A DNA stretch of 63,561 bases, filler included, from Asterionella formosa (GCA_002256025.1; 11 parts of 11 records of this genome joined end to end with filler, not necessarily neighbours in it); one strand, 5' to 3'. Shown: positions 17,914 through 61,237, numbered from the whole stretch's first letter. The notes: a model not told the origin generated them from the sequence alone. Translations and numbers: made by a program.

Positions 17914-18013
17914 NNNNNNNNNNNNNNNNNNNNNNNNNNNNNNNNNNNNNNNNNNNNTTAATTAATTAANNNNNNNNNNNNNNNNNNNNNNNNNNNNNNN
18001 NNNNNNNNNNNNN
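17914..18013. other. Artificial 100-nt linker (N44-TTAATTAATTAA-N44); identical linkers start at 35896, 37108, 38320, 39532, 40744, 58714, 59926, 61138 and 62350
   Basis: Same length and same six-frame stop cassette at all ten joins. Confidence 0.98.
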
Positions 18014-31156: not shown

Positions 31157-31838
31157 CAGGTACCAGGTGGACCGGTACTGGTACTGGTACCTGGTAAAAA
31201 GCACGGTCAAAAGACCCAAGATACCAATGGCACAATCAGGGTGGTAATTGCACGGTGAATGGACACAATTCACGTAGGACTTGTCACTTATGATGAAGTA
31301 CTTCTTTTTAAGATGAGCATTTATGTGCCGAAGCAAGCATGTTTCAAAAACCAAATCCATTGAGATTCATGTGAACGAATAGGTTTAAGGGTTAATCAAG
31401 AATAGGGAGACGAAAAATTTGTTTCCTATCGATTATTTAGCATTTTCTCGGTTGTTGGCAAAGTAACCGTATGCATATGCACAGAACCAAACCTGATGTT
31501 CAAAATCGGATTCCTGTTGTGTTACATGAATACCTGTTCCCAAGAAGAATTGTTATCCTGGCAAGATTGCTACCACTAGGTTACCTATTCATAGGATGAG
31601 GTATCCATCTGATGCAACCAACCATTTGGAAACTATGCCAATAATTCCAACTATTTCGCAATTCCCAATAAGGTTAAGGAACCCAAATGAAGTCTACTAC
31701 TTCTTGTTGGTCAGCTAATACATACCCATATTTAACGACGGTATACTCGGAAGAGATGTATGTTGCAAATCGCAAAAATATGCAGCTGAATAGTGCACAG
31801 GGGGCTGATGTGAGTTTGGAATCAGTCACGAAATGTCG

Positions 31839-33683
31839 TCACTGCTCGCTCACCGACTTCACTATCTGTGGTGACTTCCGTTTCACAAGGCGCAAAACCA
31901 TTGGTCTGGATGATTTGGTAATAATGCCTAGCTTTTTCAGTGGATTGGCATATTGAGGATCAGGATGATAGCTACTTTCGCCGGTTTGAATCTTGGACGT
32001 CCATGTCCGGACGACCGATGGAAGCGTGTCATAAGCTAGTGTGCCATCCTCGTGCGTTGATGATTGCAAAATGTTCCAATACTCCTCAAAGTTCTCTTGA
32101 AAACGCAGTTGCAGCTCTGGTCTCGTTACCTTTTTGCGAGCAACAGCACGCGAGTGTTCACCGATTATACCAAGTTCCTTTAATTCTGAAAGGTAATCGG
32201 AGTCGGGATCATATCGTAGGGTACCACCAAGTACGCTTGATGCCCATAATAGGGCCTTTTCGTTGATACCAGACTCATCAATATCATAACCGTGTGAATT
32301 ATCAAGGTAGACTGGAATGCGACGTCCGAATTCCTCAAAGAAGGTGTGGCCGCGCTCGCTGTTGATGAATGCATGGAACGTCGGGAGATGATATTTACAT
32401 TTCTCATCAAAGGTCCTCATTACATTCTTTCCCAATGCAGCTGGTGTGAAAGAAAACGGAACTTCACCTGCTCTGAGGAGCTGTCTCGACTTTCTTGTCA
32501 AAAGTCCGAGTCCTGCTAGCCTCGGTGCATACGATGCCTCAAAAAGGTACGCGCCGTGCTTTATACTTTCTGCCCAATTGCGCGCCTGCTTGGAAACATG
32601 AGTTGAAAATCCGAATAAACTTCCGTTCTTTTCATAATATTCCTCCAGCTCTGGGAGTAACATTTCGCATCTTTCATCAAAAGACTTGAACAATATAGAG
32701 TCAGCCGGTTTGAAAGACACAGGAAGTTCACCATCTCTGAGCAATTGTCTAGATTTCTCCGACAAGATTCCTAGTCGTTCGAGTCTCGCTGCGTGCTCCC
32801 CCAAGAACATCGTTTCTCCCATCTTGATTCGACTTGCCCAACCAGATGCCTCCTTTGATATCTCCTTCGAATATTGTGATAACATACCATGTCTTTCATA
32901 ATATGCCTCGAGTTCCGGGAGATAGATTTCGCAGCTTTCTTCAAAAGACTTGTGTGATACAATGTCAGTTGGCTGAAAGACTACTGGTGTTTCGCCTTTT
33001 CTTAGTCGCTGCCTAGATTTCGGCGACAAGATTCCAAGTCGCTCTAGCCTAGATGCATATTCTGCCAAGAACATCGTGTCTCCATGTCTGATACTGGTTG
33101 CCCAACTCGATGCTCCCTTCGATATCTCTTTTGAAGTATAGCTTAACACTCCATGCATTTCAAAATAATCCTCAAGCTCTGGCAAATACATTTCGCACCT
33201 CTCTTCAAATGGCTTGCTGCGAGAATATACGACCAGCACTACTGGATCAAATGCTACAGGAGATTCACCTTGTTCCAAGTATTGAATTGACTTCTCCGTC
33301 AACAGACCAAGTCGCTGCAATCTTGTGGCATACTCAGCCAAAAACTTGGTTCGTCCGAGCCTGATCCCACTGGCCCATTTCGATGCGTTTGCCGAAAGTT
33401 TTTGCTTCCTATCCTGACGATGATCCTCCAGCTCTGGAAGGTACTTTTCATGGAGCTCCCTCGGGGCTAATCGTTTGGATGGCTTTGCTTGTATAAATGT
33501 ATCAACAGCTTGCTGTTCTGTTTTCTGATAACTTTCAGTATTTTTGCTTGTTGTGAATAATTCTTGATTGAGGCGGAGCTTTGAGTAATGTTGCTCGCAT
33601 GAGATGAATCCCTGACAGCAAGTTAGTAACCATAGGCAGAGAAAGCACCCAAAGAGTGGAAGGAAGGAAGGGTATGTTGTCAT
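31839..33683 (-). CDS. 614-aa tandem-repeat protein (four well-conserved ~88-aa and two diverged HA-like repeats), predicted plastid-targeted
   Basis: Single intact ORF. Signal peptide ends CCQG|FIS. Repeat consensus KSFEERCEMYLPELExYYExHGxL...SKEISKxASxWAxxIKxGxxxFLAEYAxRLERLGILSxKSRQxLRxGExPVxFxP. Confidence 0.85.
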   Translation of the reverse strand: MTTYPSFLPLFGCFLCLWLLTCCQGFISCEQHYSKLRLNQELFTTSKNTESYQKTEQQAVDTFIQAKPSKRLAPRELHEKYLPELEDHRQDRKQKLSANASKWASGIRLGRTKFLAEYATRLQRLGLLTEKSIQYLEQGESPVAFDPVVLVVYSRSKPFEERCEMYLPELEDYFEMHGVLSYTSKEISKGASSWATSIRHGDTMFLAEYASRLERLGILSPKSRQRLRKGETPVVFQPTDIVSHKSFEESCEIYLPELEAYYERHGMLSQYSKEISKEASGWASRIKMGETMFLGEHAARLERLGILSEKSRQLLRDGELPVSFKPADSILFKSFDERCEMLLPELEEYYEKNGSLFGFSTHVSKQARNWAESIKHGAYLFEASYAPRLAGLGLLTRKSRQLLRAGEVPFSFTPAALGKNVMRTFDEKCKYHLPTFHAFINSERGHTFFEEFGRRIPVYLDNSHGYDIDESGINEKALLWASSVLGGTLRYDPDSDYLSELKELGIIGEHSRAVARKKVTRPELQLRFQENFEEYWNILQSSTHEDGTLAYDTLPSVVRTWTSKIQTGESSYHPDPQYANPLKKLGIITKSSRPMVLRLVKRKSPQIVKSVSEQ

Positions 33684-33797: not shown

Positions 33798-33815
33798 GGT
33801 TAGGGTTAGGGTTAG
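33798..33815. repeat. Short interstitial TTAGGG telomere-like repeat
   Basis: ggttagggttagggttag, about 115 bp upstream of the 33683 ATG. Confidence 0.6.
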
Positions 33816-34869
33816 TGACAGTGGCAATTCCAACCCTGTTGCACAGCACTGATTGCTGGGATCAATTGAGGTTCGTCCCCATGATGGAGGGTACCTTTTC
33901 AGCGTGTTAGAATAAAGTTTGATAACTATGGATCAACATGTATTGGCCACAATTAATCAGGGATGCCTGATCTACTTGCGCTATTTAACACCCAAACACA
34001 GTGACAATAATCCTGCTACAACAACATGTTTCATGATGAAAAAGAAGCTATCCCTATGAAGGAGGCGGATCATGGTTTCTTTGATAGTACCCTCCTCAAT
34101 GTCATGTTGCATCAACTGCAGAACTAAGCTATATGGACAATGATTTACTTAATTCAAGTTGGACAAACAAGATAAGACCCACAGTGGTGGCGAAGTTTAA
34201 ACACCTCCTTGCCTTTTAATTAAAGCATGGATACAGGAGAAACAGGCCATTTCAGGCTGCCTTGGTTCATTGAACCGACTGAATTCACAATCAATATTTT
34301 AAACCAAATCATCATTTAAGGGGGAGGAGTGAACCAAGGAAATAACACAGCCTGCAGCATGGTCTTGTCCAAAGATCTTCACTCGCTTGATCCATGGCGA
34401 GGAAGATCAACAGAGATAGGCGTAAAAAGAAGCGTGAATTCCTCAGCTACCTACATTGCCCAATGTCGGGGTTGCGTGTACATTCCCCTTACATGCCTTC
34501 TTAAGATTGAAGAAGACACCTTCCCCCTGCATATGGCCTCCTCCGTGACCATGGAGTATTCGGAATGCCCCATTCGAGGGTCTAATTTTTAATTCCAACA
34601 ATTATGACTTGTTCCAATTATTAGTACCTGATCATCCTCTGGTGCACATGGCTGAATCAAGGAGGAGAAGAAAATACAAACTTGTTATGTAGACTGTGAT
34701 ATTAACCAGCAATTATCATTTTATAAGTGGTTTTATCATAGATTGAAACACCGTTGATTACTTTCAATTAATACTCTGTATGGTACATACTCCGAGTATG
34801 CCGCTATGCATCATGCACAAGATAAAGTTGGTTTGTAAGATGTGTTCGGTTTGGTAGAAGTTTATATAA

Positions 34870-35895
34870 ATTTGTACATCTTCAATGTAGGCCTTATCAC
34901 CCTGACAGTTGATGAATGAACAGATCATTCGGACGTGAAATTTATATTTCTCATCAAACACTGCTCCGCACTGCAGCCGGCGTGAAGGAAAATGGAACTT
35001 CACCTTCACGTAAGCACTGTCTTGACTTCCTTGTCAACAGTCCGATTCGTTCTAGCCTTGGCGCATGTGATGCCTCAAAAAGGTATGAGCCGTGCTTGAT
35101 ACTATTTGCCCACACAAAAGCTTGCTTCGAAATACGAGAGGACATTCCAAACAAACTTCCATTCTTTTCATAATATGCCTCAAGCTCCGGGAGGTTCATC
35201 TCACAGCTTACTTCGAAAGACTTGGGTGATACAGTCAAAGATGGCTCAAAGGCAACTGGAGAATCTCCATTTCTCAATCGCTGTCTCGATTTTGTAGACA
35301 AAAGTCCAAGTCGCTCCAGCCTTGGGGCATATTCTGCCAAAAACATGCACTTACCTTCTTTTATGCCAGAAGCCCATTGTGATGCTCCCTTCGATATTTC
35401 TTTTGAAGTATAACGTAACTCTCCATGTATGGCATAATATGCCTCCAGCTCTGGCAAATACATTTTGCACCTCTCTTCAAATGGCTTTCTACGCGAAGTT
35501 GAATACACCTCAGCGGTTTCAAATGCAACAAGATATTCGCCATTTTTCAAGACCTGAATTGATTTATCCGTCAATAGACCAAGTTGCTGAAATCTCGTGG
35601 CATACTCTGCCAAAAACTTGATTCGTCCGTGTCTTATCCCACTGGCCCAATTCGATGCATTTTTAGATAGTTTTTGGTTTTGTTCCTGACGATGAGCCTC
35701 CAACTCCGGAAGGTACTTTTCATGAAGTTCCTTCGGGGTCAATCGTTTGATTCCTATAGGTAATTTACGGCGATTCTCAATAATATCGCGTTGAATTGAC
35801 TTCTCTGTCAACAGAAACAGTCGCCGCAATCTTGTGGCATACTCAGACGAATACTTAATCTGGCCGTGCCTGATCCCACTGGCCCATTTCCATGC
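34870..35895 (-). pseudogene. Tandem paralogue of the 88-aa repeat gene; 5' part beyond the scaffold end; frameshifted at the start of repeat 5
   Basis: Same repeats in ORF 34954..35829, open to the gap. After FSFTPAAV the homologous FDEKYKFHVRMICSFIN continues in a different frame. Confidence 0.75.
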
Positions 35896-37207
35896 NNNNN
35901 NNNNNNNNNNNNNNNNNNNNNNNNNNNNNNNNNNNNNNNTTAATTAATTAANNNNNNNNNNNNNNNNNNNNNNNNNNNNNNNNNNNNNNNNNNNNACTTC
36001 CTCGATGAAATTGCCTCTCAATGGAAAACTATGGCAAGCAACTCAACATCCCAGCTTTCTTTGTTCCATATATTAAATTATTTTTATTAAAGCAAAAATG
36101 TTGCGGTAATTTTGCTGAACTACAAAGATTTAGCTTCTTTTACCCTGGGTACCCCCGCCAGGGCAGCGGTATACTGGTACACCAACGTATGGCTGATGGT
36201 ACCAGGTGAGCGATCTTGCACATCAATACAGATGTATATAGGAGAATGAGTTACACACAAGGATTAACAAATAAGCTCATATATTCAACAAATACTACTA
36301 CTTCTAGTTAGATACTTCACTTTGAATTCAAAAAGAGTCCAATTAGAATTAATATTGTTGATGTCCTCTCAAGTTCCAGTGGTCCCATTGATGAAGGATA
36401 ACAACATACTAAACATCAAGATTCAAACTTCTTTGTGTATCCTAACAAGCCAGGTCGACATTTCGAGTCTTACAGCAAAGATATGATCAATTGACGCTCA
36501 GGGGAAGCTTGTTTATTGATTTCAGTAAATCCTGTGATATGGCTAACACATATATCTTCAGTCCAGCAGATTCCTTGCTTGTTCACCTACTGCTACAAAA
36601 GATGACTCATAGATATCGTCCTGTCTGACTGGATGAGCGTTGCAATACACTCAGATGCTCAGTCCCACCATAACAGTCTCAACAAGAAAGTCATAGTGAT
36701 GTGGCTGGAAGATTACCTTCTTCATGATATCTCTGAGAGTCAATAACAGTGGCTGGATGCCATGATATTACTCAATAAAACATTTCAACATGTTTATAAT
36801 CGACTTCGTTGCCTGTCTCAAGACCTTAAAGATACTCCTAAAACTCATGATAACTCATCCAGAAGATCAAGAGGTTTCCGCCAAGGAAGATTTGAGGTTG
36901 ATTGTCATTTTGCTTGATCGACAATGCGTGGCAACAAGTGTTTGAATGGAACAATGAAAAGAACACAAAATAATTGATTTGCTTGGTTTTGACTTACTTC
37001 GAGAGTCAACAATCATTAAAAGATCAACTCAAGCACATCCTCAAGCATGAGTTCTACCATAAGCCGAAATCGACTTCGCATCGCTTGTTGAAGGCAATCG
37101 TGTTATGNNNNNNNNNNNNNNNNNNNNNNNNNNNNNNNNNNNNNNNNNNNNTTAATTAATTAANNNNNNNNNNNNNNNNNNNNNNNNNNNNNNNNNNNNN
37201 NNNNNNN

Positions 37208-37360
37208 AGTCATTCTAAGACTCTCTTCGAATTTCCAATTAACATTTCCATAGAAATCTTCAATCTTTGATGTTGTTAGATAGCTGATTGATGTGGCAAT
37301 ACAAGATTCGACTCGTTGGATTAAAATCGAGTCCACAATCCTTGTGAAACATCCTTGACA
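37208..37360 (-). mobile_element. LTR-like fragment (tgtcaag family)
   Basis: Reverse complement aligns closely with 59309..59470. Confidence 0.8.
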
Positions 37361-37445
37361 CATGTGACTGCATTTTGGTACCTGGTACCAGGTACTGGCT
37401 GAGTACGAGTACCAGGATTGCGTTCGTGTTCATGAGTCAAATAAG

Positions 37446-38319
37446 GGTACCAGTAAAAAACTGCTGTGACCCACTAAAAAAAATTGGAACCGCTGTGACC
37501 CACTGAACAGGAGAAAAACACGGTTTGACCCCACCAAATGCCAATATGTTAATTTTAAAACTTCGACCCAAATCCTGACCATCTACGCTTTAAGGATATG
37601 CCATTAGATTTAAGTTTATAGCAATTTGTTTCTCCTAAAATATTGGTTGAAAAGTGCAATCGACGAAATTATTGCCAGAACACGGATTACCCCATGTTTT
37701 AAGGATTCATTGTTTTGTGATATACGCAACTAGATACAAAAATATCGCATGCGATTTATTTTGCCTATGATTCTTGTCATAAACATATCCCTATCCCCTG
37801 ACATTGATTGAGTAATTTCAGCATGCATAAACGGGCGCGCCAAGGTCAACCCACATACCATCAGCCCCCGTACAACAATGCGAAGAAAGTGTGCACCGAA
37901 ACCGGTACATACCGGTATGTGTTGACGGCTGAATGCATTTGTGTGTGATTGTGATGTACCGGTATCCTGGTACAGCAGGTACTCGGATAAATCTGGATAC
38001 GAAAATTCTTCTTAAAAATAATTTTTCGAAAACCAAACGGGGTAATCCGTGATCGTAATGGTATATAAAATTATATTCAACTATAGATAAAAATTTAAGT
38101 ACGGCTGTGACCCATTACCGGCAAATTTTGTCCACATAAAAGGGTTCGTATCTCAGCACCTCGACCTTTAATGAGAATATCGACAGATCCACAACTTGAT
38201 GACTCCTTTGGTTAACAAGACATGCAAGTTTGATTCTCGCAAGACATGGAATAGGTTTAGTCGAACTAATCAAACGAATAGGAGAACTCAGTGGGTCACA
38301 GCAGTTCTTTACTGGTACC
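37446..38319. mobile_element. Non-autonomous DNA transposon (~874 bp) with 30-bp TIRs, possibly PIF/Harbinger-type
   Basis: Left ggtaccagtaaaaaactgctgtgacccact versus right (revcomp) ggtaccagtaaagaactgctgtgacccact, 1 mismatch. Internal gctgtgaccca repeats. Preceded by taa-g; the right flank is lost in the gap. Confidence 0.85.
37681..38051. mobile_element. Internal or nested 371-bp segment bounded by a perfect 13-bp inverted repeat
   Basis: cacggattacccc (37681) and ggggtaatccgtg (38039..38051). No TSD seen. Confidence 0.55.
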
Positions 38320-38419
38320 NNNNNNNNNNNNNNNNNNNNNNNNNNNNNNNNNNNNNNNNNNNNTTAATTAATTAANNNNNNNNNNNNNNNNNNNNNNNNN
38401 NNNNNNNNNNNNNNNNNNN

Positions 38420-38545
38420 AAGGTACCAAGTACTGTCCCAGGTTCCTGGTACCTGGTACCAACACGGGAGCCTGGCACTTGGTACCTGGAAGCCAGCCCC
38501 GTCCTCCGGAGTAGCAGGAAGTGGTACCCTGGTACCAGGAACCAG
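38420..38545. repeat. Dense GGTACC(A/T)GG micro-array
   Basis: aggtaccaagtactgtcccaggttcctggtacctggtaccaa...ggtacctgg...ggtaccctggtaccaggaaccag. Confidence 0.8.
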
Positions 38546-38815
38546 TTGCAGCAACTCGCTTAAAGAATCCACATGTACTACCGGTTTCGTTTGTGCGTAT
38601 GCCTTGTCAAATCATCCACATATATAGCGGTAGCCAACTGCCATATGGGGTACTCCTGGTAACTGGTAACTGATACATGGTACCAGGGGGTGCCGGCATT
38701 TCGCTCGCCGCCCGGCCAACGTTCACAATGTGTAGTGTTCGCCGTTGGCTGCAGGAAAACCGGTACAATCTGGTTGTTCGTATCGTACATATTATGTGCC
38801 AGGTACAGATACATG

Positions 38816-38982
38816 TGTTGAGGGGAACCTTATCGTGAATAAAGGTGAACTACAATATTATGACTATTCTATTGCTGTTCCAAGTACATCGTTGTCAGCA
38901 CTCACGCATGTACCTAATCTGGTGGCTGCGCCGGTATGGTTCGTACGGCGCATGTATGGAGCATCATATGCAGATATTAACA
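38816..38982 (-). mobile_element. 3' LTR (167 bp) of the CoDi-like copia element
   Basis: Minus strand: purine tract ggtgagggtg, then tgttaatatc...ccctcaaca. Confidence 0.7.
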
Positions 38983-39531
38983 CACCCTCACCAACAGATG
39001 CAGGCAGGAGAACAGGAGCGGGGAGGGAGATGCTATCAGCATCGGAAGCCAAGCACGCATAATAGTTAGGAGGACTAGGGAGGGATGGAGGGCAATGGAG
39101 GTAGTGCGGGCGCATCAACATATGATGGGAAGCGGGATGATGTTTAGTGAAATAATCAGCACGATTCAAACTACCTTTTTTCCAGTATACAAGAAATTGG
39201 CCTTGGCGAACCCGATCGCGTACCCAGTAATAACGCATATCCATAGCTTTGGAACGTTTTTGTCGGACAGTATCATTGGCGATGCCACTGGCAGTGCTAT
39301 TATCGGTGACAATACGGGTAGAAGGTTGGGGATGACCAAGCTCAGCAAGAATGGTGCGAATAGCATATGCCTCTTTGCCATTGTGGAATAAAGCAGCTAA
39401 TTCGGCCTCAGCAGCACTTGATACAACCTCCTTAAGAATTTGACAGTGGACGTAAATAGCACCGTTAAGAGGAGGGATGGATGTAGTGAGGCTAGGTGGA
39501 GACACGGGTTTACAGCTGAGAAAGTGAATGC
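38983..39531 (-). mobile_element. CoDi-like Ty1/copia RNase H domain, 5'-truncated
   Basis: NGAIYVHCQILKEVVSSAAEAELAALFHNG...LAELGHPQP...TDNSTASGIAN...KRSKAMDMRYYWVRDR...NRADYFTKHHP. Confidence 0.95.
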
Positions 39532-40863
39532 NNNNNNNNNNNNNNNNNNNNNNNNNNNNNNNNNNNNNNNNNNNNTTAATTAATTAANNNNNNNNNNNNN
39601 NNNNNNNNNNNNNNNNNNNNNNNNNNNNNNNGGAAAAAACCCTTTGACTTTCCCTCCCTCCCAACTTTCCTTTCTCATTTGACCTTGATTTGTTATTGGT
39701 ATGCATGTTTAGCAGAGAAGTAAGAGTTCTCGCCTTCTTGTACCTTTAGTGTGATTCACTGGGCATTCAAGTTAACAATCAGATCTATTTCCACCTGTTT
39801 CAAATCAGCAGCAGGTTGGCTCTCTTGTAGGTTCACCCAGAATTGACCTGCATCAAACTATTGAAATGCTAGGCTCGCTGTTGGCCGGGAAATAGAATGG
39901 ATGGAAAGGGGCCAAAGTACCCAGCAGCTTATCAATGTACTTAATAACATTAATAACAAAGAAAACACGTTTATTCAATCTTACTGTATGTTAAAGCTCG
40001 CAAATAAGCGAGCTCGTGCCCACATCAATGGAAACAATTAGTACCAATTTTATTGGTCTGTATGGTAAAATGGGACCTGTCTCCTTGTCAACCACACACC
40101 CCAAAACCCTAGGGACTACATCAACGAAAGGCGGTTGGAGAAAACATAATCGAATCCACCACATCATGAGGTGTGCCAACCGCTATGCCATTCCCCTAAT
40201 AAATAATATTTTAAAAAATTACTACAAGCTTAGAATTAGGTACAAAATTTTACAGACTGTGAAAATGACTATTGAAGCTATGAAGAAAATCAGGCCTTCC
40301 AGTGCATCAAAAATGGAATTGAAATTGATGATTGAAATCGTTTGAACTTGAAAATCTTTCTCTTCAATGTTGCTATTTACATTTTAGACTATGGCAAAAA
40401 TGGCGAAGTTGGTTTGCTCATTGTGTTTAGCACTCAAGGAATGCCCAATGTTATGCACCCCTTCTAAGGAATACCAATCGCGGTGGTATACATTGAGGGG
40501 GTACAATAAACTGTAGCTACCACTTAAAAACTAAAAGCGACCACCTGAGGACCTCTGAACTGTATGTCACTGCTAAATGGGGTAAATCCAAAATTTATTA
40601 ACTTTTTCTGCAAGATACAATAATTATTGTTACAAAAGAGTTGATCGGATGAATATGACGAGTGAATACTATCAGCATACATACTTGTTTTGTTCCATTG
40701 CTTGCGTAAATTGTTAATTATGAATTATGGCCAAAAGGTTGCTNNNNNNNNNNNNNNNNNNNNNNNNNNNNNNNNNNNNNNNNNNNNTTAATTAATTAAN
40801 NNNNNNNNNNNNNNNNNNNNNNNNNNNNNNNNNNNNNNNNNNNGTAACAACCCTTTAATAACT

Positions 40864-44392: not shown

Positions 44393-45356
44393 NNNNNNNN
44401 NNNNNNNNNNNNNNNNNNNNNNNNNNNNNNNNNNNNNNNNNNNNNNNNNNNNNNNNNNNNNNNNNNNNNNNNNNNNNNNNNNNNNNNNNNNNNNNNNNNN
44501 NNNNNNNNNNNNNNNNNNNNNNNNNNNNNNNNNNNNNNNNNNNNNNNNNNNNNNNNNNNNNNNNNNNNNNNNNNNNNNNNNNNNNNNNNNNNNNNNNNNN
44601 NNNNNNNNNNNNNNNNNNNNNNNNNNNNNNNNNNNNNNNNNNNNNNNNNNNNNNNNNNNNNNNNNNNNNNNNNNNNNNNNNNNNNNNNNNNNNNNNNNNN
44701 NNNNNNNNNNNNNNNNNNNNNNNNNNNNNNNNNNNNNNNNNNNNNNNNNNNNNNNNNNNNNNNNNNNNNNNNNNNNNNNNNNNNNNNNNNNNNNNNNNNN
44801 NNNNNNNNNNNNNNNNNNNNNNNNNNNNNNNNNNNNNNNNNNNNNNNNNNNNNNNNNNNNNNNNNNNNNNNNNNNNNNNNNNNNNNNNNNNNNNNNNNNN
44901 NNNNNNNNNNNNNNNNNNNNNNNNNNNNNNNNNNNNNCACATGGAATTGTTCTTGATCCGCCATCATGTGCTGCATTTTCTTACTGTAAGATTTTCTCAA
45001 CAGATCAGTCCTTTCGAAGGTGTGTGTATTGATCGTTATCTTGATTGCTCATGGGTTTGTTGGAACGTCGACTTTACTTCATATGAACCTTAGTTGAACA
45101 CACAAGATGCTGCGAGACGATTCAGCCGAAGGGGCGACAATCCAGAGTTTGACGGTGTTGAAAGCAGTGTCATCATTGCCTCGCAATATCACGTGAGGGA
45201 CCCAGAACCAGTTACCGGTCCTCTTTTCACTATGGAGAGCTATAGCAACTCACGTTTCTGTCGGAATCCTGCCTTCGTCCGATGACTCTCTCGTATCTTC
45301 TATTCTCACACATATCCTCCTTTGTTACTTCAGCATTTTACCTTACTTCCGCCACA

Positions 45357-45822: not shown

Positions 45823-48800
45823 TCATGTGAACGTTTTGCTCATTGCATTAGCAGTTGAAGCACACTGGTAGCTCCAGTTTGCTGCAATCAGTGCCTTTTG
45901 GGCCAACACGCTCGAATAGTCTGATACTCCGTCGGAGGTGCAGTGACGAAACTGGATTCCAAGTGTAGGACCAGATGCATTGAAGCCCCTACTAGTTAGC
46001 GCGACAAGACGAGAGTACGTCCTAGACAATGGATAGAGTAGGTCAAGATTAGCCCAGGATCGTTGTCCAGGGCCCTCGTAGTTGACCGCCTCTTCCGATA
46101 CAAAAGAGCTCCACTCAAGTATACGAGTATGGTTCCGGAGGAGTTTCCAAGCATAATCTGAATCAGTGTAGATGTCGACCTTAGCTTTGAGCAAACTAGA
46201 ATTGCTATTGATTTCAGCTTCTTGATTCAATAATTGTAGGATCACTTTGAGGGCGTCGTGACAGGCGTAAAGCTCACAGCGATTGCGTGATGGTCGCAAA
46301 TACGGATAACCATTAAGAATTGATCCTTGAGTATAGCATGTACCTCCCTCATTTTCAGGCATAATCTGTGCAAAACTTCGTATGGTTGCTTGGCGAAGAC
46401 GTTCGACCAGAGCTTCGCTTCCGTGTGCGACCTGAGGAAAGTACAAACACATACCGCCTGCTCGACGAAACCCCCTGACCTGCTCAAAATCATCGGCAGG
46501 AAAAGGTCGACCTGCTACGTAAACAACAAAGGGAACAATATCTTTATCGTAGCAGAATTCCAAAGGATAGGTTGAATTCAGAATAGCATTCCTCAGACTT
46601 TGTGCCGGTTCCTCGTTTCTTTCGCCTTGCTTTGGTCGAAATTGCCTTTTCTGAATCGAATTCGTATAAGAAGTAGTTCTAACCTGTATGGATGATGCAG
46701 GTAACGCAAGTTCAGCGTATGCATACGTATTTCCATTGAACACCTTGCCACTTCGACATAACGCATAGATTTTCTGCAAGCTGATATCAAGCTTCGTTGC
46801 TGCATCCTTCGCGCTAGAATATCTTGCAGGAACTTCGTTGGGATCCAAGCTAATTTCGATGACAGGTCGCGAAAACTTGTTGTTGGTGTTGTTCTGGCGT
46901 CGAATTAGGACATTTTCCAATGGTATCCCAGACAACAACCCCAACTTGAGCCTCTTCTCAAGTGCTTCCGCTGTCAAGAAAAGCAGGGATGGATTCATCA
47001 GCAAAACTTGCCTAATGTCGCCATTGGGACTCAAAGCATCTTGTATCATGTCAATTTTGGGTCCTAGCGATGTTTTGATGCTAAACTTCACTATTCTGGG
47101 CGCTGCACACATGAGATCTCGAAGCTGACAGGTAGAAAGGTCCAATCGTTTCTGCAAAAACTGAAGAGTCGGCAACAGATTACGCTTCCAGCTCAACGTC
47201 AATAGGTCCGGATTCTTAATTAGGGTGAAACCCATTTGTGACTCTGACATTTCACAATAGTCCATGAAGGCTTGGGCAGTTGGACGGAGATTTTCTTCGA
47301 GGGATAATCCAAGAAGTAGTGGCGTAATCTTAATCATATTTCGTAGACCCGTTCGTGGAATGCTCAAATCATCGAGAAAAAATGCAACCTTTGGACGCAA
47401 AGAATTTTCAATGCTGGAATGAAGTAATGAGGGTTGCTTCAGGGCCATTTTTGATAACTCATCCCGAGTCAACCCGATTTCATCAATGAAAAACGACAAT
47501 CTTGGTTGAAGTCCATTTTCTATTGACATTCCAACGAGCGAAGGCATACGTAGCATAATTTTTCGCGTATCTTTGGATGATAATCCAAGTCCCTTCTGTA
47601 TGGCGTTCAAAGTGGGAAGAATATTGTGCGGTACACTGTAACTGACCAAGCTCGAATGAGTCTTTATCATGGCCTGTACTGTGCCAGTGGAAACTTGTAG
47701 TCTCGCTCGGAGATAGTGCAATGCGTGTTCCTTGAATACAAATCTTGTCGCACTTTTGTGATACATTACCCAAGCAGGATCCGTATCACATGTCACTAAA
47801 GAAGGAAAGGCTTGAAGCAAAATTTTCAACTGGCTCCAACTAGCTCCTATCGACTTCACATACGCCACCATACTAACATCCGACGGAGTGGCACCGTCCA
47901 GGTAATCGAACAGAGTTTCTCTGACTTCATCACATAATTCTTTGGGAACTTGTAGAGTTTGATAAAAATACAGGAAGTTGGGCTTTTGCGCTGCATCTTC
48001 ATAGTACATGGCAAGTATGTGCGGAATGCCCTTCACTATCAGTCTTACTTGGTCTTTTGTAAATCCAGTACCGAAACCTTTCGCTGCTAAAAGTGGCCAA
48101 TCAATATGACTGGTATTCAAATAATTCGCTGGTGGAATAGGTGACAGCAGAAATCGTAACCGCTCGGCAACTTCCTTGGGGTCGTACAAACAGACTTGTG
48201 GAAAATTGTGAACGACGCTCTGTTTAGCCACAGCTGGAGTGAACCCAATTTGATTCAACAGGTGAAGAAGGTTGGCGTAGTTTGAGCTAATGGTAGTATT
48301 CGTATGCGTGAGGAACCTAAATTTCCCCACCCGATCGGCGAGATATCCGACTATGGATACAGTCGTCGACCCGGTTACCAAGTTAGACAATGTCAGCAGT
48401 GCTTGGTAACCCCGTTGAGTTCGCTCTCGAAGCTCTTCTCCAGAGATGACCTGTCGATACAAAGTTTGTTCATCCTTGCCGCCACCTGCAACAATCCCCA
48501 AATCTGGAAGCTCGTTGTCAAAGGTCTGGAACCCCATTATCGCAAATTGAGCACTCGGGTAAGCCTCGATTGCATCGTCGAAGAACTCAAAGCTTTCCAC
48601 CAGTCTTGAGTCTTGATAGACTGCGTGCCGTTGAAAATTGTTTGAAAAACGAATAGTTACAGGCCCATTGAAATCTTCCAAATCTCTTTCATTCAGTTTG
48701 GCATGTTCTAGATGCGCTTTGGTGATGGCATGTAGAAGGAAGGTTGGACAAGAGCCCGCATTTCTTCCTCTGGAACTAATGGACAGAAATGCCCTAGTTT

Positions 48801-48849
48801 GGATTAACGAGATGCACAAACATAACCAAATAGTGCACGAGCACTGCAT
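45823..48849 (-). CDS. Plastid-targeted mTERF-repeat protein with NUMOD1-like HTH and C-terminal RNase H-like domain
   Basis: Signal peptide ...IQTRA|FLS. Many mTERF repeats (PSLVGMSIENGLQPRLSFF, PSLLHSSIENSLRPKVAFF, PLLLGLSLEENLRP, PDLLTLSWKRNLLPTLQFL). YSSAKDAATKLDIS..KIYALCRSGK. RNRCELYA, VDIYTDSDY, NLDL, IQFRH. Confidence 0.88.
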   Translation of the reverse strand: MQCSCTIWLCLCISLIQTRAFLSISSRGRNAGSCPTFLLHAITKAHLEHAKLNERDLEDFNGPVTIRFSNNFQRHAVYQDSRLVESFEFFDDAIEAYPSAQFAIMGFQTFDNELPDLGIVAGGGKDEQTLYRQVISGEELRERTQRGYQALLTLSNLVTGSTTVSIVGYLADRVGKFRFLTHTNTTISSNYANLLHLLNQIGFTPAVAKQSVVHNFPQVCLYDPKEVAERLRFLLSPIPPANYLNTSHIDWPLLAAKGFGTGFTKDQVRLIVKGIPHILAMYYEDAAQKPNFLYFYQTLQVPKELCDEVRETLFDYLDGATPSDVSMVAYVKSIGASWSQLKILLQAFPSLVTCDTDPAWVMYHKSATRFVFKEHALHYLRARLQVSTGTVQAMIKTHSSLVSYSVPHNILPTLNAIQKGLGLSSKDTRKIMLRMPSLVGMSIENGLQPRLSFFIDEIGLTRDELSKMALKQPSLLHSSIENSLRPKVAFFLDDLSIPRTGLRNMIKITPLLLGLSLEENLRPTAQAFMDYCEMSESQMGFTLIKNPDLLTLSWKRNLLPTLQFLQKRLDLSTCQLRDLMCAAPRIVKFSIKTSLGPKIDMIQDALSPNGDIRQVLLMNPSLLFLTAEALEKRLKLGLLSGIPLENVLIRRQNNTNNKFSRPVIEISLDPNEVPARYSSAKDAATKLDISLQKIYALCRSGKVFNGNTYAYAELALPASSIQVRTTSYTNSIQKRQFRPKQGERNEEPAQSLRNAILNSTYPLEFCYDKDIVPFVVYVAGRPFPADDFEQVRGFRRAGGMCLYFPQVAHGSEALVERLRQATIRSFAQIMPENEGGTCYTQGSILNGYPYLRPSRNRCELYACHDALKVILQLLNQEAEINSNSSLLKAKVDIYTDSDYAWKLLRNHTRILEWSSFVSEEAVNYEGPGQRSWANLDLLYPLSRTYSRLVALTSRGFNASGPTLGIQFRHCTSDGVSDYSSVLAQKALIAANWSYQCASTANAMSKTFT

Positions 48850-50045: not shown

Positions 50046-53034
50046 NNNNNNNNNNNNNNNNNNNNNNNNNNNNNNNNNNNNNNNNNNNNNNNNNNNNNNN
50101 NNNNNNNNNNNNNNNNNNNNNNNNNNNNNNNNNNNNNNNNNNNNNNNNNNNNNNNNNNNNNNNNNNNNNNNNNNNNNNNNNNNNNNNNNNNNNNNNNNNN
50201 NNNNNNNNNNNNNNNNNNNNNNNNNNNNNNNNNNNNNNNNNNNNNNNNNNNNNNNNNNNNNNNNNNNNNNNNNNNNNNNNNNNNNNNNNNNNNNNNNNNN
50301 NNNNNNNNNNNNNNNNNNNNNNNNNNNNNNNNNNNNNNNNNNNNNNNNNNNNNNNNNNNNNNNNNNNNNNNNNNNNNNNNNNNNNNNNNNNNNNNNNNNN
50401 NNNNNNNNNNNNNNNNNNNNNNNNNNNNNNNNNNNNNNNNNNNNNNNNNNNNNNNNNNNNNNNNNNNNNNNNNNNNNNNNNNNNNNNNNNNNNNNNNNNN
50501 NNNNNNNNNNNNNNNNNNNNNNNNNNNNNNNNNNNNNNNNNNNNNNNNNNNNNNNNNNNNNNNNNNNNNNNNNNNNNNNNNNNNNNNNNNNNNNNNNNNN
50601 NNNNNNNNNNNNNNNNNNNNNNNNNNNNNNNNNNNNNNNNNNNNNNNNNNNNNNNNNNNNNNNNNNNNNNNNNNNNNNNNNNNNNNNNNNNNNNNNNNNN
50701 NNNNNNNNNNNNNNNNNNNNNNNNNNNNNNNNNNNNNNNNNNNNNNNNNNNNNNNNNNNNNNNNNNNNNNNNNNNNNNNNNNNNNNNNNNNNNNNNNNNN
50801 NNNNNNNNNNNNNNNNNNNNNNNNNNNNNNNNNNNNNNNNNNNNNNNNNNNNNNNNNNNNNNNNNNNNNNNNNNNNNNNNNNNNNNNNNNNNNNNNNNNN
50901 NNNNNNNNNNNNNNNNNNNNNNNNNNNNNNNNNNNNNNNNNNNNNNNNNNNNNNNNNNNNNNNNNNNNNNNNNNNNNNNNNNNNNNNNNNNNNNNNNNNN
51001 NNNNNNNNNNNNNNNNNNNNNNCGTTATTTATAGGGTCGGAGCAGCCGCCATTTGAAGATTAGCAGTCATGCGACCGTCTTTTTCTGACACAATTATCAA
51101 CCAGTTGTCATCGAGAGAGAAAGTACTGGTGGGCCTTGCATTGTGTCGTTGTCCGCAACGGAAAGGTTCATGTTTGCATCTTGTGGAGCATCTGTAGCAA
51201 AGTGTCGACGCTTCCTGCACTGCTTGTATTTGAATTTGTATTCAAAAAGAGACACCAAAGACGACGTGGTTACATAGCAACAACGCAACAACGAGGAGGC
51301 ACGGCTCTCATAGCAGCTTCTTTGGAAAAAGGTCATCAAAGTCAAGGCTCATCGCACTACTGCTAATGAAGAATCCACAAAGACGACTGATACAAGGCGA
51401 GATTTTGTGCATTGGGGAGCTGCAGCAGTCAAGCACGACCATAATTGTTTTGCGATTTTAATGGAAGATAAAATTTACTATCGCTACTTACTGGAGGGAG
51501 ACGATCAGCCAGGTTGCTTTGTACTGATGACCATCACTGTATTATATCATGGTATAGTGTTTATATTCTGAATTGGTATATAATAACCAGGTTATTAAAA
51601 TTGCTTTTCTTTATGGTTATTTGTCATCAGGTCTGACTTGGTGGTGTCAGACTTTGGACTCAAGTCCAGACTTGGTATAAACAACTGCTGATGCAACTTA
51701 GAGGGAGTGCCAGGGTATTCCCTGTTCCCTGCTGGGTGGCAAGCAACTAATATTACTACAACTTGTACCACTGGACTCGGAACTCTGGCAAATTATTCAT
51801 TATCTTCACCACCAGGCAGCCGATGCAGCCAGGTGGATGACAGGACAATATGCATGTGTTGTCTACTGGTACTAGTAGTCATGTGATGGTGGTCCATTAA
51901 TGTTGGACTATTGGAATATCATTGCATATTGGTGTGACGATGCAAAATACTAATAGGGACATACAAACATTTGATTTGACGATGAGATTATGGTGTCCAG
52001 TGAATAAACCATTTGATTAAATTATTTCTTTTTGAGTCCAGTGGCATATGTTTTTGTCGTGATTCCCTCAAAAATCGCGTATATTTCACTTGCTACAGAG
52101 TGAGCTAAAGTTGATTTAATCATTATTTGCTTGCTGGGTTGAGATCATCCTAGTCTTGGAAACGTGAGGAAGTGAAGCCTGAAGCTCCATTGTGAACAAA
52201 CTTGTTTTCTAGTCATTTAGCTCATGAATGCCCATGTGAAAGACAAAAAGGATTATCAATCATTTTTGCTCTTTGTCAGGTTTGATCAGTCCACTCATGC
52301 TGTCCACTCCTGGGAATCCCACTCCGTCGAAAAGGATGTGTTTATTAATAAAAGTACTGGATACACGAATACTCTGTTTATTCAACGAGTGCTCAACCAA
52401 TGCAATTTCCTGTACAGGTAGGTACCAGGTACATTACAAGGTATGCTTCTTAGGAGCTACATGTATTTCCTGGTAGGTATAGGATGTAAACCCACTCCTT
52501 CCATTTGTTTCTTTCGTGCTTTTTAAATCAAGTAATTTGAAATTCTTTGGCAGGCAGGCCGGCCGTGCGCGCGATGTATTATCAACTCGCACAGAAATAT
52601 CATCGGGACATCGTTGCTTGCGGTTCCTCAATTTGAGGTCCTGTCTATCTGCTTAAGTAACCTTTGTCATGGAGTATTTATACATAGTCAACTCAGGACC
52701 ACTTCGTATCTGTGGAGCATTATATTCAGTCATGATCAAGAATTCGGCCAGCATACACACATATTACTATGAAAACGAAATTTTAAATGATAACAGCGAG
52801 TCCCGTTGCGCAAGCAAGGTCCTCCCTCACCTGCTCGGAGGACATCATATGTTGACAAGGTCACCGTGTACCGCATTGTACTGTACATACACATGTTTTG
52901 TTTGTTTTGGTATGTGTTTTATGTGCTCCACTTCGGAGTCTCCTGCATGACACATTTCAAGGCATCAAATACAGTCAAATTGTCGGCGGGAAAGGGCTCA
53001 CTTTCTCCCCATTATCATACCGATTAAACTAGAA

Positions 53035-58143: not shown

Positions 58144-59308
58144 ATTTGCTGGTGTATGCTTTTTGTTGTTCTTCGAATCAATGGGGTCGCTCTAGGGTAG
58201 AATAGGTGTGATACAGCAGACTGAAAGAAAATGTAATTAAGATTAAATAATGCTAGATCAGAAACGAATCAAGAACATGGGTTGGCAAAAACCACCATGT
58301 ACATGTATAAATAGTAGTATTATATGCATAAATCAAAGAAAACCACACACAGACAGAACAAAATAATCGGTAGGCCGCAATATTTATTTCATTAGACGAT
58401 CATGATAATATGCTATTTTATCATACCATATTTCATATTATAGAGAGTATAGAGTATGTACACAGGTATACCGGTAGATGGTTTTAGCTACTCAATACTA
58501 TTCTTTGTGAAGGAGGCCTGTTAATTTTGGTTGGCCTCGAACTGAGGCACGTCTGTCTGAAGTTAGCGGTCGGCTCGTCCGTCCTTTCGCACCTCAACGT
58601 TTGTTGGTGAAGTGGTCCCTGGCATCATCATGAATCATCATTCAAGCTACATATGTATCATGATGTACATACAGAACTTACAGTATAAAAATGCTGTTGG
58701 CTGTAGACAGTACNNNNNNNNNNNNNNNNNNNNNNNNNNNNNNNNNNNNNNNNNNNNTTAATTAATTAANNNNNNNNNNNNNNNNNNNNNNNNNNNNNNN
58801 NNNNNNNNNNNNNTACCGCGCAAATCAAACACTTTATAAGGTGTACAAGGTGCCAGGTACCAAGTGCACAATGTATGTACATCCTGTAGGTCGCTAATTA
58901 AATAGTGTAAGTAATGAGTAAGCATTTATTTGCTTCGTCCAATGTCGCTACATACCAAATATATGCATACAGAACCTAGTCTATATAGGTACCTGTTACC
59001 CTCCCCCAGTTGAATGCTCTCCACGTGGCCATTTTTGGACCGATGCACGAGAAAGATGATTGCTTTTCGTTTTCGTCCTCATGATTTCTTTCCTACCAGC
59101 ATGGACACGAAGATGATTCGGCATACTTACTATCGTGTACAACTGTTACCCCTACCTGGTACGTACCAGGTACCAGGTAACCCTGGGATTGAGGGTACGT
59201 ACTGCAGTCTACATGATTCTGTAAACAAAGTGTCTACAGCTGTACTTTAAAGCTGCACGTGCCTACGTACTGGCCAACTACCGGGATCATGCAGTGTACC
59301 AGCAGGTA

Positions 59309-59714
59309 TGTCAAGAATATTAGCCCGAGTCACAAGGATTGTGGACTCGATTGTAATCGAACGAGTCGAATATTGCATTGCCACGTCAATCAGCTGTCTA
59401 ACGAGATCAGAGATTGAAGATTTCTATGGAAATGTTAAGTGGAAACTCGAAGAGAGTCTTAGAATGACTTTGCAGGAAGCAAAGATGCATGGAAAGGAAA
59501 CATTTAGTTTAGCTTATAATTTAATTTGAGATTTAGATTATCAACCGAGGAAACAGTGTGTTAATTGACAGGAAGGTCAATTAGTCTATCTAGCAGGAAG
59601 GCTAGAAGCAGAGACAAGAGAGAAAGTGAGTGGTACTAGGTAGTACTACGATCACGTAAGAGTCTACGTGAAGAGAGACCCAACCCGCGGGAAGGAGTAC
59701 GGACCATTTCAACA
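59309..59714 (+). mobile_element. Complete solo LTR-like element (406 bp) with caggta direct repeats on both sides
   Basis: caggta|tgtcaag...tttcaaca|caggta; three further partial copies in the window. Confidence 0.8.
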
Positions 59715-60808
59715 CAGGTACTGGTAGCCTAGAAAGGTGCTTTACTCGGCCGAGTATTTAGTAAATACATAAACTGGACTGGTGGTACCTGGTAGTCTAA
59801 TGCCTTACCGGTACTTCAAAATCATATTTGTATACCGTAATAATACCGCTTTGAAAGAGAACATAATACCCGTACACGTGTATGCATGAATCGATACACT
59901 GTTATTTAGCTACCAGTAAATGATTNNNNNNNNNNNNNNNNNNNNNNNNNNNNNNNNNNNNNNNNNNNNTTAATTAATTAANNNNNNNNNNNNNNNNNNN
60001 NNNNNNNNNNNNNNNNNNNNNNNNNTTTTGGGTTTTGGTTTGGGTCAACGGTTAGCAACGGCCTCAAACAGCGATCACAAAAATAAAGGACGTTTTGAGT
60101 CAGGAAGTATTATTATCGTACCAACATTTTGTCAGTAGGAGTGGAAAGGGAAAAATTCTCATATCATGTCCGGAATTTTGCTTAGCTGAATAAGACCCTC
60201 GGGGTCATTAATCAATGTTAAATACTGGTATCAAACATACATTGGACTAAACTTCAACCTTCTTCTACATGACGATTATAACGAACCATGTGGAGTGGTA
60301 CCACATGGTATTTTTCCAATAAATGTGCCTGTTGTACTGATACCGGTTTACTATCACGAAGGGCATATGTACAAACATATTTTATGATGGACAAAAGTTC
60401 CGGCATCATCATGGTTATGATTTCATGTAGAACTCAACGACATCAGGTGGTAGAGAAATTATTTCAGGTACTAACTGTGATTGACAAGTGTCAAGAATTA
60501 CAAACACGAGCGACATCATACGACATGCACGCAAATGAATGTTATTTTTACATATGCGAACAGGTTTATATAAGTAAGCCCTTCTATCACTCCCCGTAAT
60601 TCAATCGCATCGGCATGCAGGAGGAATGAGTTGCGTAGAATTCTACGACAAGTGGTAGAGACACCACTTTGGTAGAAGGGCTGAAGAATTACTTTTCAAT
60701 CACGACTAAAACGACGACAACGACGACGAGACACGAACAAGAACCAAACAAAGAAGTATCTCGAATAAATAATAGACAACTCTCATTACATTCAAGACGA
60801 CTTTGAAA

Positions 60809-61137: not shown

Positions 61138-61237
61138 NNNNNNNNNNNNNNNNNNNNNNNNNNNNNNNNNNNNNNNNNNNNTTAATTAATTAANNNNNNN
61201 NNNNNNNNNNNNNNNNNNNNNNNNNNNNNNNNNNNNN

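What the first reader, a model, noticed from the sequence alone, without database searches (positions are those of the whole stretch)
31839..33683. Predicted plastid-targeted protein built from ~88-aa helicase-associated-like repeats
Seen: six repeats with conserved F-EE...L..Y...HG, A..W...I..G and RL..LG, and variable residues around the Trp helix (SKWASG, SSWATS, SGWASR, RNWAES, LLWASS, RTWTSK). The presequence has Phe at +1. Established: the HA domain (PF03457) has the pattern W.E....L..Y...HG...L..W...QR...R...L..LGF and is predicted to bind nucleic acid; organelle gene expression often uses modular repeat proteins (PPR, OPR, mTERF). Inference: a candidate new modular plastid DNA/RNA-binding family with a possible per-repeat recognition code.
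Basis: partly seen in the sequence, partly recalled or inferred. Interest (0 to 1): 0.75.

Follow-up and report, generated by a model that had tools for sequence, protein, structure and literature searches.

The report
Divergent HA-like repeat protein, likely plastid-targeted
This is a real, transcribed algal nuclear gene whose protein carries a plastid-type import signal followed by six small three-helix domains that look like very distant relatives of the DNA-binding "helicase-associated" (HA) domain; it is a lead to an unstudied organelle protein family, not a proven one.

Summary
ORF 31839-33683 (-) encodes 614 aa with six internal repeats, each a 69-aa core plus a linker, and all the quoted motifs are present.

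The gene is real:
- Contigs from RNA libraries match it exactly, with no intron.
- dN/dS against a tandem paralog at 34954-35895 (-) is 0.24.

The family is tiny: 7 hits among 1.84 billion representative proteins.

HA kinship is probable but weak on every single test:
- P0001 has no Pfam HA hit; two relatives score 20.5-21.6 bits against a cut-off of 28.4.
- hhalign gives P 0.003-0.011.
- The nearest language-model clusters are all HA, some of them from diatoms.

AlphaFold models the repeats as separate three-helix domains on flexible linkers, not a PPR-like solenoid.

The presequence is a hydrophobic signal followed by Phe (CQG|F). It passes the ASAFind matrix criterion, but SignalP was not run and Glu at +5 is atypical.

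Plastid location and nucleic-acid binding are inferred. A per-repeat recognition code is unsupported.

The parts
31839..33683 (-). Complete single-exon CDS, 614 aa plus stop (P0001)
   Evidence: Contigs from RNA libraries cover 31605-33607 at 100% identity with no joints. dN/dS against the paralog is 0.24.
33609..33683 (-). Residues 1-25: putative signal peptide, h-region FLPLFGCFLCLWLLTCC, inferred cleavage CQG|F
   Evidence: Kyte-Doolittle 11-residue maximum is 2.57. ASAFind-matrix cleavage-site score is 4.88. SignalP was not run.
33462..33608 (-). Residues 26-74: Phe(+1) transit-peptide-like spacer, modelled as low confidence
   Evidence: Composition. The first 15 residues hold one acidic residue (E at +5) plus K and R. 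pLDDT is below 50 for residues 1-70. Nearly identical in the 12-repeat paralog form P0026.
33273..33461 (-). Repeat 1 core (aa 75-137), the short type that lacks the HG-loop segment
   Evidence: iE 4.1e-28. Helices 74-91, 98-108 and 116-124.
33000..33206 (-). Repeat 2 core (aa 160-228)
   Evidence: iE 5.1e-36. Helices 159-177, 189-199 and 207-215, pLDDT 86-90.
32736..32942 (-). Repeat 3 core (aa 248-316)
   Evidence: iE 7.7e-34. The single-repeat model has pLDDT 79 and pTM 0.67.
32472..32678 (-). Repeat 4 core (aa 336-404)
   Evidence: iE 6.9e-32. Three helices.
32136..32420 (-). Repeat 5 (aa 422-516), divergent, with a ~20-aa insertion between helix 1 and helix 2
   Evidence: iE 4.7e-16 for aa 448-516. 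Lower pLDDT, 37-71.
31896..32099 (-). Repeat 6 core (aa 529-596), divergent
   Evidence: iE 1.1e-21. pLDDT 75-82.
34954..35895 (-). Tandem paralog, same strand, 1.27 kb upstream. Its last 4 repeats and stop are present. It is cut at 35896 by runs of N.
   Evidence: It is 99% identical to P0003 residues 194-506. The full-length form P0026 has 12 repeats and the same presequence.

Best explanation
SHOWN.
- This is an intron-less, transcribed nuclear gene of a freshwater microalga. 'Diatom' is inferred, not verified.
- The protein has a hydrophobic N-terminal signal, then Phe and a ~50-aa spacer modelled at low confidence, then six copies of a 69-aa three-helix unit.
- Each unit is followed by a ~19-aa linker carrying a GE.PV.F.P motif, which the models place in a short beta-bridge back onto the domain.
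- It belongs to a very small, lineage-restricted family and sits next to a tandem paralog whose full-length form has 12 repeats and the same presequence.

INFERRED, with my odds.
(i) The unit is a highly divergent homologue of the HA (PF03457) DNA-binding domain, about 0.7.
(ii) The signal-plus-Phe presequence takes the protein across the four diatom plastid membranes into the stroma, about 0.55.
(iii) There the six independently folded domains, strung on flexible linkers, bind organellar nucleic acid multivalently, DNA more likely than RNA. The Trp helix (helix 2) with its conserved Lys/Arg at W+5 would form the contact face. About 0.45, conditional on (i).

It would then act like a nucleoid-associated or gene-expression factor built as beads on a string, not as a PPR-type solenoid.
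For: The gene is real.
- ORF.
- Contigs from 4 RNA-library runs of 4 studies match 31605/31703-33204/33343 with 0 differences and no joints.
- 15 of the 16 runs that hold the stretch are on record as RNA, from lake or freshwater samples.
- dN/dS is 0.24 against the tandem paralog over 252 codons.

Repeats.

Fold.
- Three helices per unit, pLDDT 80-92 in R1-R4, linkers below 50, pTM 0.26.
- The single unit has pLDDT 79 and pTM 0.67.

HA kinship.
- Pfam HA in relative P0005: E 2.7e-4, 21.6 bits, residues 124-177 to HA positions 7-63 of 64, i.e. one repeat core in register. The same in P0033: 6.1e-4, 20.5 bits.
- hhalign of 25 family repeats against 22 bona fide bacterial HA units: score 18.4, P 0.0031, 61 columns end to end. 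W aligns to W, K/R at W+5 to the HA Arg, and RLerLG to rLe.IGF. None of 200 column shuffles reached that score (mean 9.6, sd 2.0, maximum 16.2).
- VIA-align against 48,161 chains: 2kta, a Bacteroides vulgatus domain, is rank 3. The title of Mills 2013 links it to PF03457.
- Atlas, residues 154-417: first hit 0.87 with 171 shared features. All five rows shown are PF03457, two of them Bacillariophyta clusters, and 10 of the ten best hits with a family share it.

HA as a DNA binder: the END-nuclease preprint says HA domains were 'previously shown to bind DNA' and cites the NMR paper (passages only). HA fusions to TniQ target selectors are also reported (figure legend).

Targeting.
- KD maximum 2.57; TCCQG|F; transit score 4.31 against the cut-off of 2 with the published ASAFind matrix.
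- Relative P0004, 45% identical with an unalignable presequence, has NCGAS|FYYAAKQNHYRPATT with no acidic residue.
- Family members are basic, pI 9.5-9.7, while P0001 is 8.2.
Against: HA kinship.
- P0001 has no HA hit even at E <= 10, and none of its six repeats hits HA when scanned alone. Only 1 of 7 family members scanned hits HA, below Pfam's cut-off.
- The tool's own hhalign on window-only repeats (9 rows) gives probability 3.9%, P 0.011, over just 22 columns. My larger run gives a probability of only 10%.
- An HMM of bacterial HA units sees nothing in the family beyond a reversed-sequence control.
- Foldseek finds nothing at E <= 0.001.
- Atlas scores under 0.9 are 'a lead only' by the tool's own text.

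Targeting.
- No SignalP, ASAFind or HECTAR was run.
- The ASAFind transit score is dominated by the Phe term. Without it the score is 1.06, no better than random 19-mers of the mature protein (0.95 +/- 0.28).

Other points.
- The conserved acidic LPELE motif on helix 1 and the near-neutral pI of P0001 sit oddly with a pure nucleic-acid binder.
- No binding or localisation data exist.
Confidence: 0.45

Rival explanations
1. The repeat architecture is as described, but the protein is not stromal. It stays in the ER or secretory pathway, or in the periplastidic compartment, and its helical domains bind proteins or other ligands there.
For: - Only a hydrophobic N-terminus is directly visible.
- Glu at +5 and a net charge of about 0 over the first 20 residues resemble the periplastidic-compartment-type presequences described in ASAFind 2.0.
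- The transit score minus the Phe term is no better than random.
- A conserved acidic LPELE face is present.
Against: - Periplastidic-compartment proteins characteristically lack Phe/Trp/Tyr/Leu at +1, whereas this protein and P0004 both have Phe.
- P0004's transit region is textbook plastid type.
- HA domains are associated with DNA-handling proteins wherever they are annotated.
Confidence: 0.25
2. The 69-aa unit is a new three-helix repeat that resembles HA only by convergence, as happens with common small helical bundles. Its function cannot then be borrowed from HA.
For: - Every sequence test is below the accepted thresholds.
- The unit has its own features that HA lacks: the LPELE motif, the KS.Q tail and the GE.PV.F.P strap.
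Against: Four different kinds of test all point to the same family out of thousands: the Pfam HMM, profile-profile comparison with a shuffle control, the structural rank of the one HA structure, and language-model features. The alignments are in register over the whole unit, with Trp on Trp.
Confidence: 0.2
3. One reading: a PPR/OPR/mTERF-like modular reader in which each repeat recognises one nucleotide or a short element through variable residues around the Trp helix.
For: - The most variable core columns flank the Trp, at W-1, W+3 and W+6.
- dN in W-2..W+9 is 0.33 against 0.14 elsewhere.
- Repeat number varies from 3 to 12 within the family.
Against: - The models show no stacking between repeats: pTM is 0.26 and linker pLDDT is below 50.
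- dN/dS of the Trp segment is 0.36, so there is no positive selection.
- Variable exposed faces are expected in any small domain.
- No Pfam PPR, OPR or mTERF match at E <= 10.
Confidence: 0.1

Closest known systems
HA, helicase-associated domain (Pfam PF03457), as tandem arrays on bacterial SF2 helicases
   Same: - A small three-helix unit of about 64-69 residues in head-to-tail arrays.
- The motif order aromatic - L..Y..G - W - basic - RL..LG is shared.
- The bacterial examples fetched here carry 9, 8 and 6 matched HA units in a row (7-9 by Pfam in the two ORFs scanned), with a period of about 67 aa.
- A weak profile-profile match and a weak structural match.
   Different: - No helicase or other enzymatic domain.
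- The period is 88 aa because of a 19-aa linker/strap.
- It has its own LPELE and KS.Q motifs and lacks HA's LG.W glycine and terminal GF.W.
- It is below Pfam's threshold.
- It carries a eukaryotic targeting presequence.
Eukaryotic HA-only proteins ('Helicase associated domain-containing protein' clusters of diatoms, oomycetes, euglenozoans and green algae in the ESM Atlas)
   Same: They are its nearest neighbours by language-model features, at 0.85-0.87 with 168-171 shared features, and are proteins made of HA units only, 156-580 aa.
   Different: Those clusters are recognised by Pfam in 96-100% of members, and this family is not. I could not obtain their sequences, so no alignment or targeting comparison was made. 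I found no functional study of them: searches.
PPR / OPR / mTERF organellar helical-repeat proteins
   Same: The concept matches: nuclear-encoded, presequence-bearing, tandem helical repeats, lineage-specific expansion and tandem gene duplication. (The properties of these families are stated from general knowledge.)
   Different: Those are 30-38-aa helical hairpins that stack into one solenoid. Here there are 69-aa autonomous three-helix domains on flexible linkers. No Pfam match to any of them.
Myb/SANT, TetR-HTH and other three-helix DNA-binding domains
   Different: They score lower than 2kta, though within the tie margin. No sequence signal.

Membership tests
HA domain (PF03457) | Match to the Pfam HMM at or above the gathering score of 28.4 bits | tested here: not met
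   P0001 has no HA hit at E <= 10, and 0 of its 6 repeats hits HA when scanned alone. Relatives P0005 and P0033 reach 21.6 and 20.5 bits, E 2.7e-4 and 6.1e-4. The 12-repeat P0026 has none.
HA domain (PF03457) | Profile-profile similarity to bona fide HA units | tested here: inconclusive
   hhalign scores 18.4, P 0.0031, probability 10%, over 61 in-register columns, and 0 of 200 column shuffles reach it. The window-only profile gives probability 3.9%, P 0.011, over 22 columns. An HMM of bacterial HA units against the family sequences shows nothing above the reversed control.
HA domain (PF03457) | Three-helix fold like the solved HA domain (2kta) | tested here: inconclusive
HA domain (PF03457) | Occurrence as tandem arrays | tested here: met
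   There are six units here and 3-12 in relatives. The bacterial HA proteins fetched carry arrays of 6-9 matched units (7-9 by Pfam in the two ORFs scanned).
Diatom bipartite (ASAFAP-type) plastid presequence | Cleavable ER signal peptide | tested here: inconclusive
   The 17-residue hydrophobic core has a KD(11) maximum of 2.57, and -3 Cys / -1 Gly are compatible with the (-3,-1) rule.
Diatom bipartite (ASAFAP-type) plastid presequence | Phe/Trp/Tyr/Leu at +1 and an ASAFind transit score above 2 | tested here: met
   With the published matrix, TCCQG|F gives a cleavage-site score of 4.88 and a transit score of 4.31. P0004's NCGAS|F gives 4.69 and 4.16. Caveat: Phe alone contributes 3.25.
Diatom bipartite (ASAFAP-type) plastid presequence | First 15 transit-peptide positions almost free of acidic residues, with net positive charge | tested here: inconclusive
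   P0001 has FISCEQHYSKLRLNQ, with one Glu at +5 plus K and R, net +1. P0004 has no acidic residue and net +2 over the first 15 positions (K, R).
Diatom bipartite (ASAFAP-type) plastid presequence | Experimental plastid localisation | not testable with these tools
   This needs GFP fusion or proteomics. Searching the supplementary files of the ASAFind paper and of a T. pseudonana organelle proteome paper for HA terms found nothing.
PPR / OPR / mTERF | Match to the family profiles, and 30-38-aa hairpin repeats forming a solenoid | tested here: not met
   No such Pfam hit at E <= 10. The unit is 69 aa with three helices, and the models show no inter-repeat packing.

The most novel reading that the evidence does not exclude
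This is the founding view of a fast-evolving, lineage-restricted family of organelle-directed HA-array proteins. Members with a signal peptide followed by Phe (this gene, its 12-repeat tandem paralog, and P0004) would go to the plastid. Members with an Arg/Ser-rich, acid-free, non-hydrophobic N-terminus (P0033, P0006) would go to the mitochondrion. All would act as sequence-selective binders of organellar DNA or transcripts, with specificity set by the variable exposed face of the Trp helix and by repeat number. That would make it a diatom analogue of the PPR/OPR/mTERF solution, built from a DNA-binding domain of prokaryotic type.
Probability: 0.12. Interest if true: 0.8.

Novelty: new variant of a known kind. 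Interest (0 to 1): 0.45.

Why it matters
HA-only proteins appear to be common in diatoms and other protists (Atlas clusters). My literature searches found no functional study of any eukaryotic HA protein. Very little came up on nuclear factors that organise or regulate diatom organelle genomes.

A subfamily that carries organelle presequences, is transcribed in lakes, is under purifying selection and varies in repeat number gives a concrete, cheap entry point: GFP targeting, EMSA and DAP-seq. If the HA kinship and plastid location hold, it would show a prokaryote-type DNA-binding module redeployed as a tandem array inside a secondary plastid.

If they fail, it is just another lineage-specific helical repeat protein.

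Tried and rejected
- Self-BLASTP returned only the identity hit and was uninformative.
- The metagenome-contig scan failed with alignment A1, which has no conserved stretch. With P0001 it found no relative.
- No whole genome is held for the window, so the family could not be counted in this organism.
- Word-indexed searches with the repeat profile ('longer') and with P0005+P0006 brought back only family members. None bridged to HA.
- PDB sequence searches with A2 and P0005 gave only chance-level rows, best E 0.14.
- Foldseek with the whole model gave meaningless global helical matches.
- PF03457 was absent from genome G001 and from the 14 control genomes. I had to sample 401 genomes to get 4 with HA.
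- RNA contigs of X1, X2 and X7 all stop at 33607, and no laid contig covers 33631-33824, which includes the ATG. I do not read this as a transcript start. No DNA run was laid, the 5' coding part is almost identical at protein level in the paralog, so assembly graphs may branch there, and R1 can only be translated from M1. It remains an open point.
- An ORF at 38864-39583 (-) that looked retroelement-like by eye has no Pfam hit, so I dropped that idea.
- The paper with the HA NMR structure (PMC3637686) is not held. I know only its title, from a reference list.
- Searches of our earlier findings returned nothing.
- Complex prediction was not used, because no protein-protein claim is made.

Full report
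WHAT IS THERE

The minus strand of 31839-33683 holds one uninterrupted ATG-to-stop ORF of 614 aa, P0001. A stop lies five codons upstream of M1, and the next in-frame Met is residue 165. M1 is therefore the only AUG from which repeat 1 can be translated.

The window is eukaryotic nuclear DNA with long single-exon genes. Examples are an MLL-like SET/PHD/bromodomain protein, a PARP-zinc-finger/BRCT protein, Nop53, a G-patch protein and a 1008-aa mTERF protein. No whole genome is held for it.

THE REPEATS

- Local alignments between five of the six Trp-centred segments score z = 5.1-41.6 above shuffles. One segment was missed by my regex.
- An HMM seeded on R2-R4 recovers R1, R5 and R6.
- After iteration over the family the model settles on a 69-position core. 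It scores the six units at iE 5e-36 to 5e-16.
- The core consensus is E..CE.YLPELEAY...HG.L....EISK.AS.WA..I(K/R).G...F..EYA.RLERLGLLT.KS.Q. It is followed in R1-R4 by a linker with GE.PV.F.P.
- R5 carries a ~20-aa insertion, and R5 and R6 are far more divergent.
- At the DNA level there is no tandem repeat, so the internal duplication is old.

THE GENE IS REAL AND USED

Of the 16 public runs that hold the stretch, 15 are on record as RNA. They are mostly lake or freshwater metatranscriptomes and come from 13 studies.

Contigs from four runs of four studies match 31605/31703-33204/33343 with no differences, no indels and no joints. There is thus no intron in that span, and a 3' UTR of at least 130-230 nt. 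No laid contig covers the first 76 nt of the ORF.

Directly upstream, on the same strand, lies a paralog at 34954-35895, cut by runs of N. Nei-Gojobori comparison of R1, R2 and R4 with their partners in the paralog gives dS 0.67, dN 0.16 and dN/dS 0.24 over 252 codons. Both copies are under purifying selection.

THE FAMILY

A full HMMER scan of 1.84 billion representative proteins found 7 proteins at E <= 1e-3. Word-indexed searches added none. Cluster look-ups gave full-length forms.

| Protein | Length | Repeats | N-terminus |
|---|---|---|---|
| P0026 (the paralog) | 1043 aa | 12 | Differs from P0001 at three residues and one indel in the first 74 |
| P0004 | 395 aa | 4 | Hydrophobic signal, then GAS\|F |
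| P0033, P0006 | 324, 337 aa | 3 | No hydrophobic signal: Arg/Ser/Gly-rich, 6-7 Arg and one acidic residue in the first 40 |

By general knowledge the N-terminus of P0033 and P0006 looks mitochondrial. This was not tested.

One 614-aa variant, P0013, carries in R1 a patch identical to R1 of P0026. That suggests exchange between the tandem genes.

FOLD

AlphaFold2 on the family alignment gives helices of about 19, 11 and 9 residues for each unit. pLDDT is 80-92 in R1-R4, lower in R5 and 75-82 in R6. Every linker is below 50, and pTM is 0.26.

A single unit (R3) gives pLDDT 79 and pTM 0.67. A two-residue beta-bridge ties the linker back to the loop after helix 2.

The models therefore show beads on a string rather than a stacked solenoid.

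IS THE UNIT AN HA DOMAIN?

Against:
- P0001 and each of its repeats scanned alone have no Pfam HA hit, even at E <= 10.
- An HMM built from 22 bacterial HA units sees nothing in the family above a reversed control.
- Foldseek finds nothing.
- The tool's hhalign on 9 window repeats gives only 3.9% probability over 22 columns.

For:
- P0005 and P0033 hit PF03457 at E 2.7e-4 and 6.1e-4, with 21.6 and 20.5 bits against a cut-off of 28.4. One repeat core aligns to HA positions 7-63 of 64.
- I fetched genuine HA arrays by scanning 401 bacterial genomes; 4 had them, in SF2 helicases with 7-9 HA units. hhalign of 25 family repeats against 22 of those units aligns 61 columns end to end, with Trp on Trp. 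The score is 18.4 and P is 0.0031, and none of 200 column shuffles reached it (maximum 16.2).
- For residues 154-417, all five Atlas rows shown are HA clusters (10 of the ten best hits with a family share it). The first scores 0.87 with 171 shared features, and two are diatom clusters. The whole protein gave 0.78.

No single line passes an accepted threshold. Four independent kinds of test pointing to the same one of about 25,000 families make remote homology the best reading. I put it at about 0.7, and I do not file the protein as a Pfam-defined member.

TARGETING

The N-terminus has a 17-residue hydrophobic core with a KD maximum of 2.57. It is followed by CQG|F.

I read passages of the ASAFind paper and copied its published matrix (Table S2). 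With it, the site after Gly25 scores 4.88 and the transit peptide 4.31, against a cut-off of 2. P0004 scores 4.69 and 4.16.

This criterion is nearly equivalent to 'Phe at +1'. Without the Phe term the score (1.06) equals that of random mature 19-mers.

ASAFind 2.0 (passages read) states two things:
- Plastid transit peptides are almost free of acidic residues in their first 15 positions.
- Periplastidic-compartment proteins lack the Phe.

P0001 has Phe but also Glu at +5. P0004 is textbook. SignalP could not be run.

I rate stromal import at about 0.55.

FUNCTION

Nothing here tests binding. The inference rests on three points:
- The HA kinship.
- The reported DNA binding of HA (passages; I could not read the primary paper).
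- The company HA keeps, namely helicases, nucleases and TniQ.

Supporting details are the conserved Lys/Arg at W+5, which aligns with the conserved HA Arg, and the basic pI of most members. Counter-details are the conserved acidic LPELE face and the pI of 8.2 for P0001.

The Trp-helix segment changes 2.4 times faster than the rest (dN 0.33 against 0.14), but its dN/dS is 0.36. That shows a variable exposed face, not a selected recognition code.

VERDICT

- HA-like: probable.
- Plastid-targeted: plausible.
- Nucleic-acid binding: inferred.
- PPR-like code: unsupported.

It is a divergent variant of a known domain architecture in a new cellular setting. It is moderately interesting as an experimental lead.

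Noticed in passing
window 34954-35895 (-), N runs from 35896: A tandem paralog of the gene sits here. Only its last four repeats are present in the window, because the assembly is interrupted by N runs. A full-length form from another source, P0026 (1043 aa), has 12 repeats. Nine of them form three near-identical super-repeats of three units, and the protein has the same presequence. This points to recent intragenic amplification.
   Followed up: partly
window 33798-33817 (+), 115-134 nt upstream of the ATG: Three telomere-type units, TTAGGG / CCCTAA on the gene strand, sit in the presumed promoter. This is the only such site in the window, and 0 of 100 shuffles gave 2 or more matches. Its function is unknown.
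   Followed up: partly
window 17914-18013, 35896-40843, 58714-62449: Pairs of 44-N runs, 12 bases apart, recur every 1212 bases. There are larger N blocks at 44393-44937 and 50046-51022, and the second explains the GC dip at 50-52 kb. This looks like masking or scaffolding, not biology.
   Followed up: no
P0033 and P0006 (relatives, not in the window): The three-repeat members of the family have Arg/Ser/Gly-rich, almost acid-free, non-hydrophobic N-termini (MLSVGRCWF...). These look like mitochondrial presequences, so the family may serve both organelles. No predictor was run.
   Followed up: partly
P0013 vs P0001 vs P0026, repeat 1 (window about 33340-33474): A 614-aa variant from another assembly carries in R1 a 19-residue patch identical to the paralog's R1. 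One RNA contig (X7) shows 13 differences over the same span. This suggests gene conversion between the tandem copies, or allelic diversity.
   Followed up: no
window 33243-33533: Short RNA contigs with 4-6 mismatches pile up here to word depths of up to about 1400, over the R1-type repeat only. This is consistent with much higher expression of the multi-R1 paralog or of further paralogs.
   Followed up: no
cluster of P0002 (JGI/Logan contigs of about 2.3 kb): Several near-identical contigs split the ORF into 418+193, 387+245 or 387+220 aa pieces. These are frameshifts relative to the window, due either to assembly indels or to truncated alleles lacking R5-R6. The four runs laid show no indel within the ORF.
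   Followed up: partly
window 45823-48849 (-): A 1008-aa ORF has an mTERF domain (E 5e-29) and a weak HTH_17 hit. This is another candidate organellar nucleic-acid-binding factor, 12 kb away.
   Followed up: no
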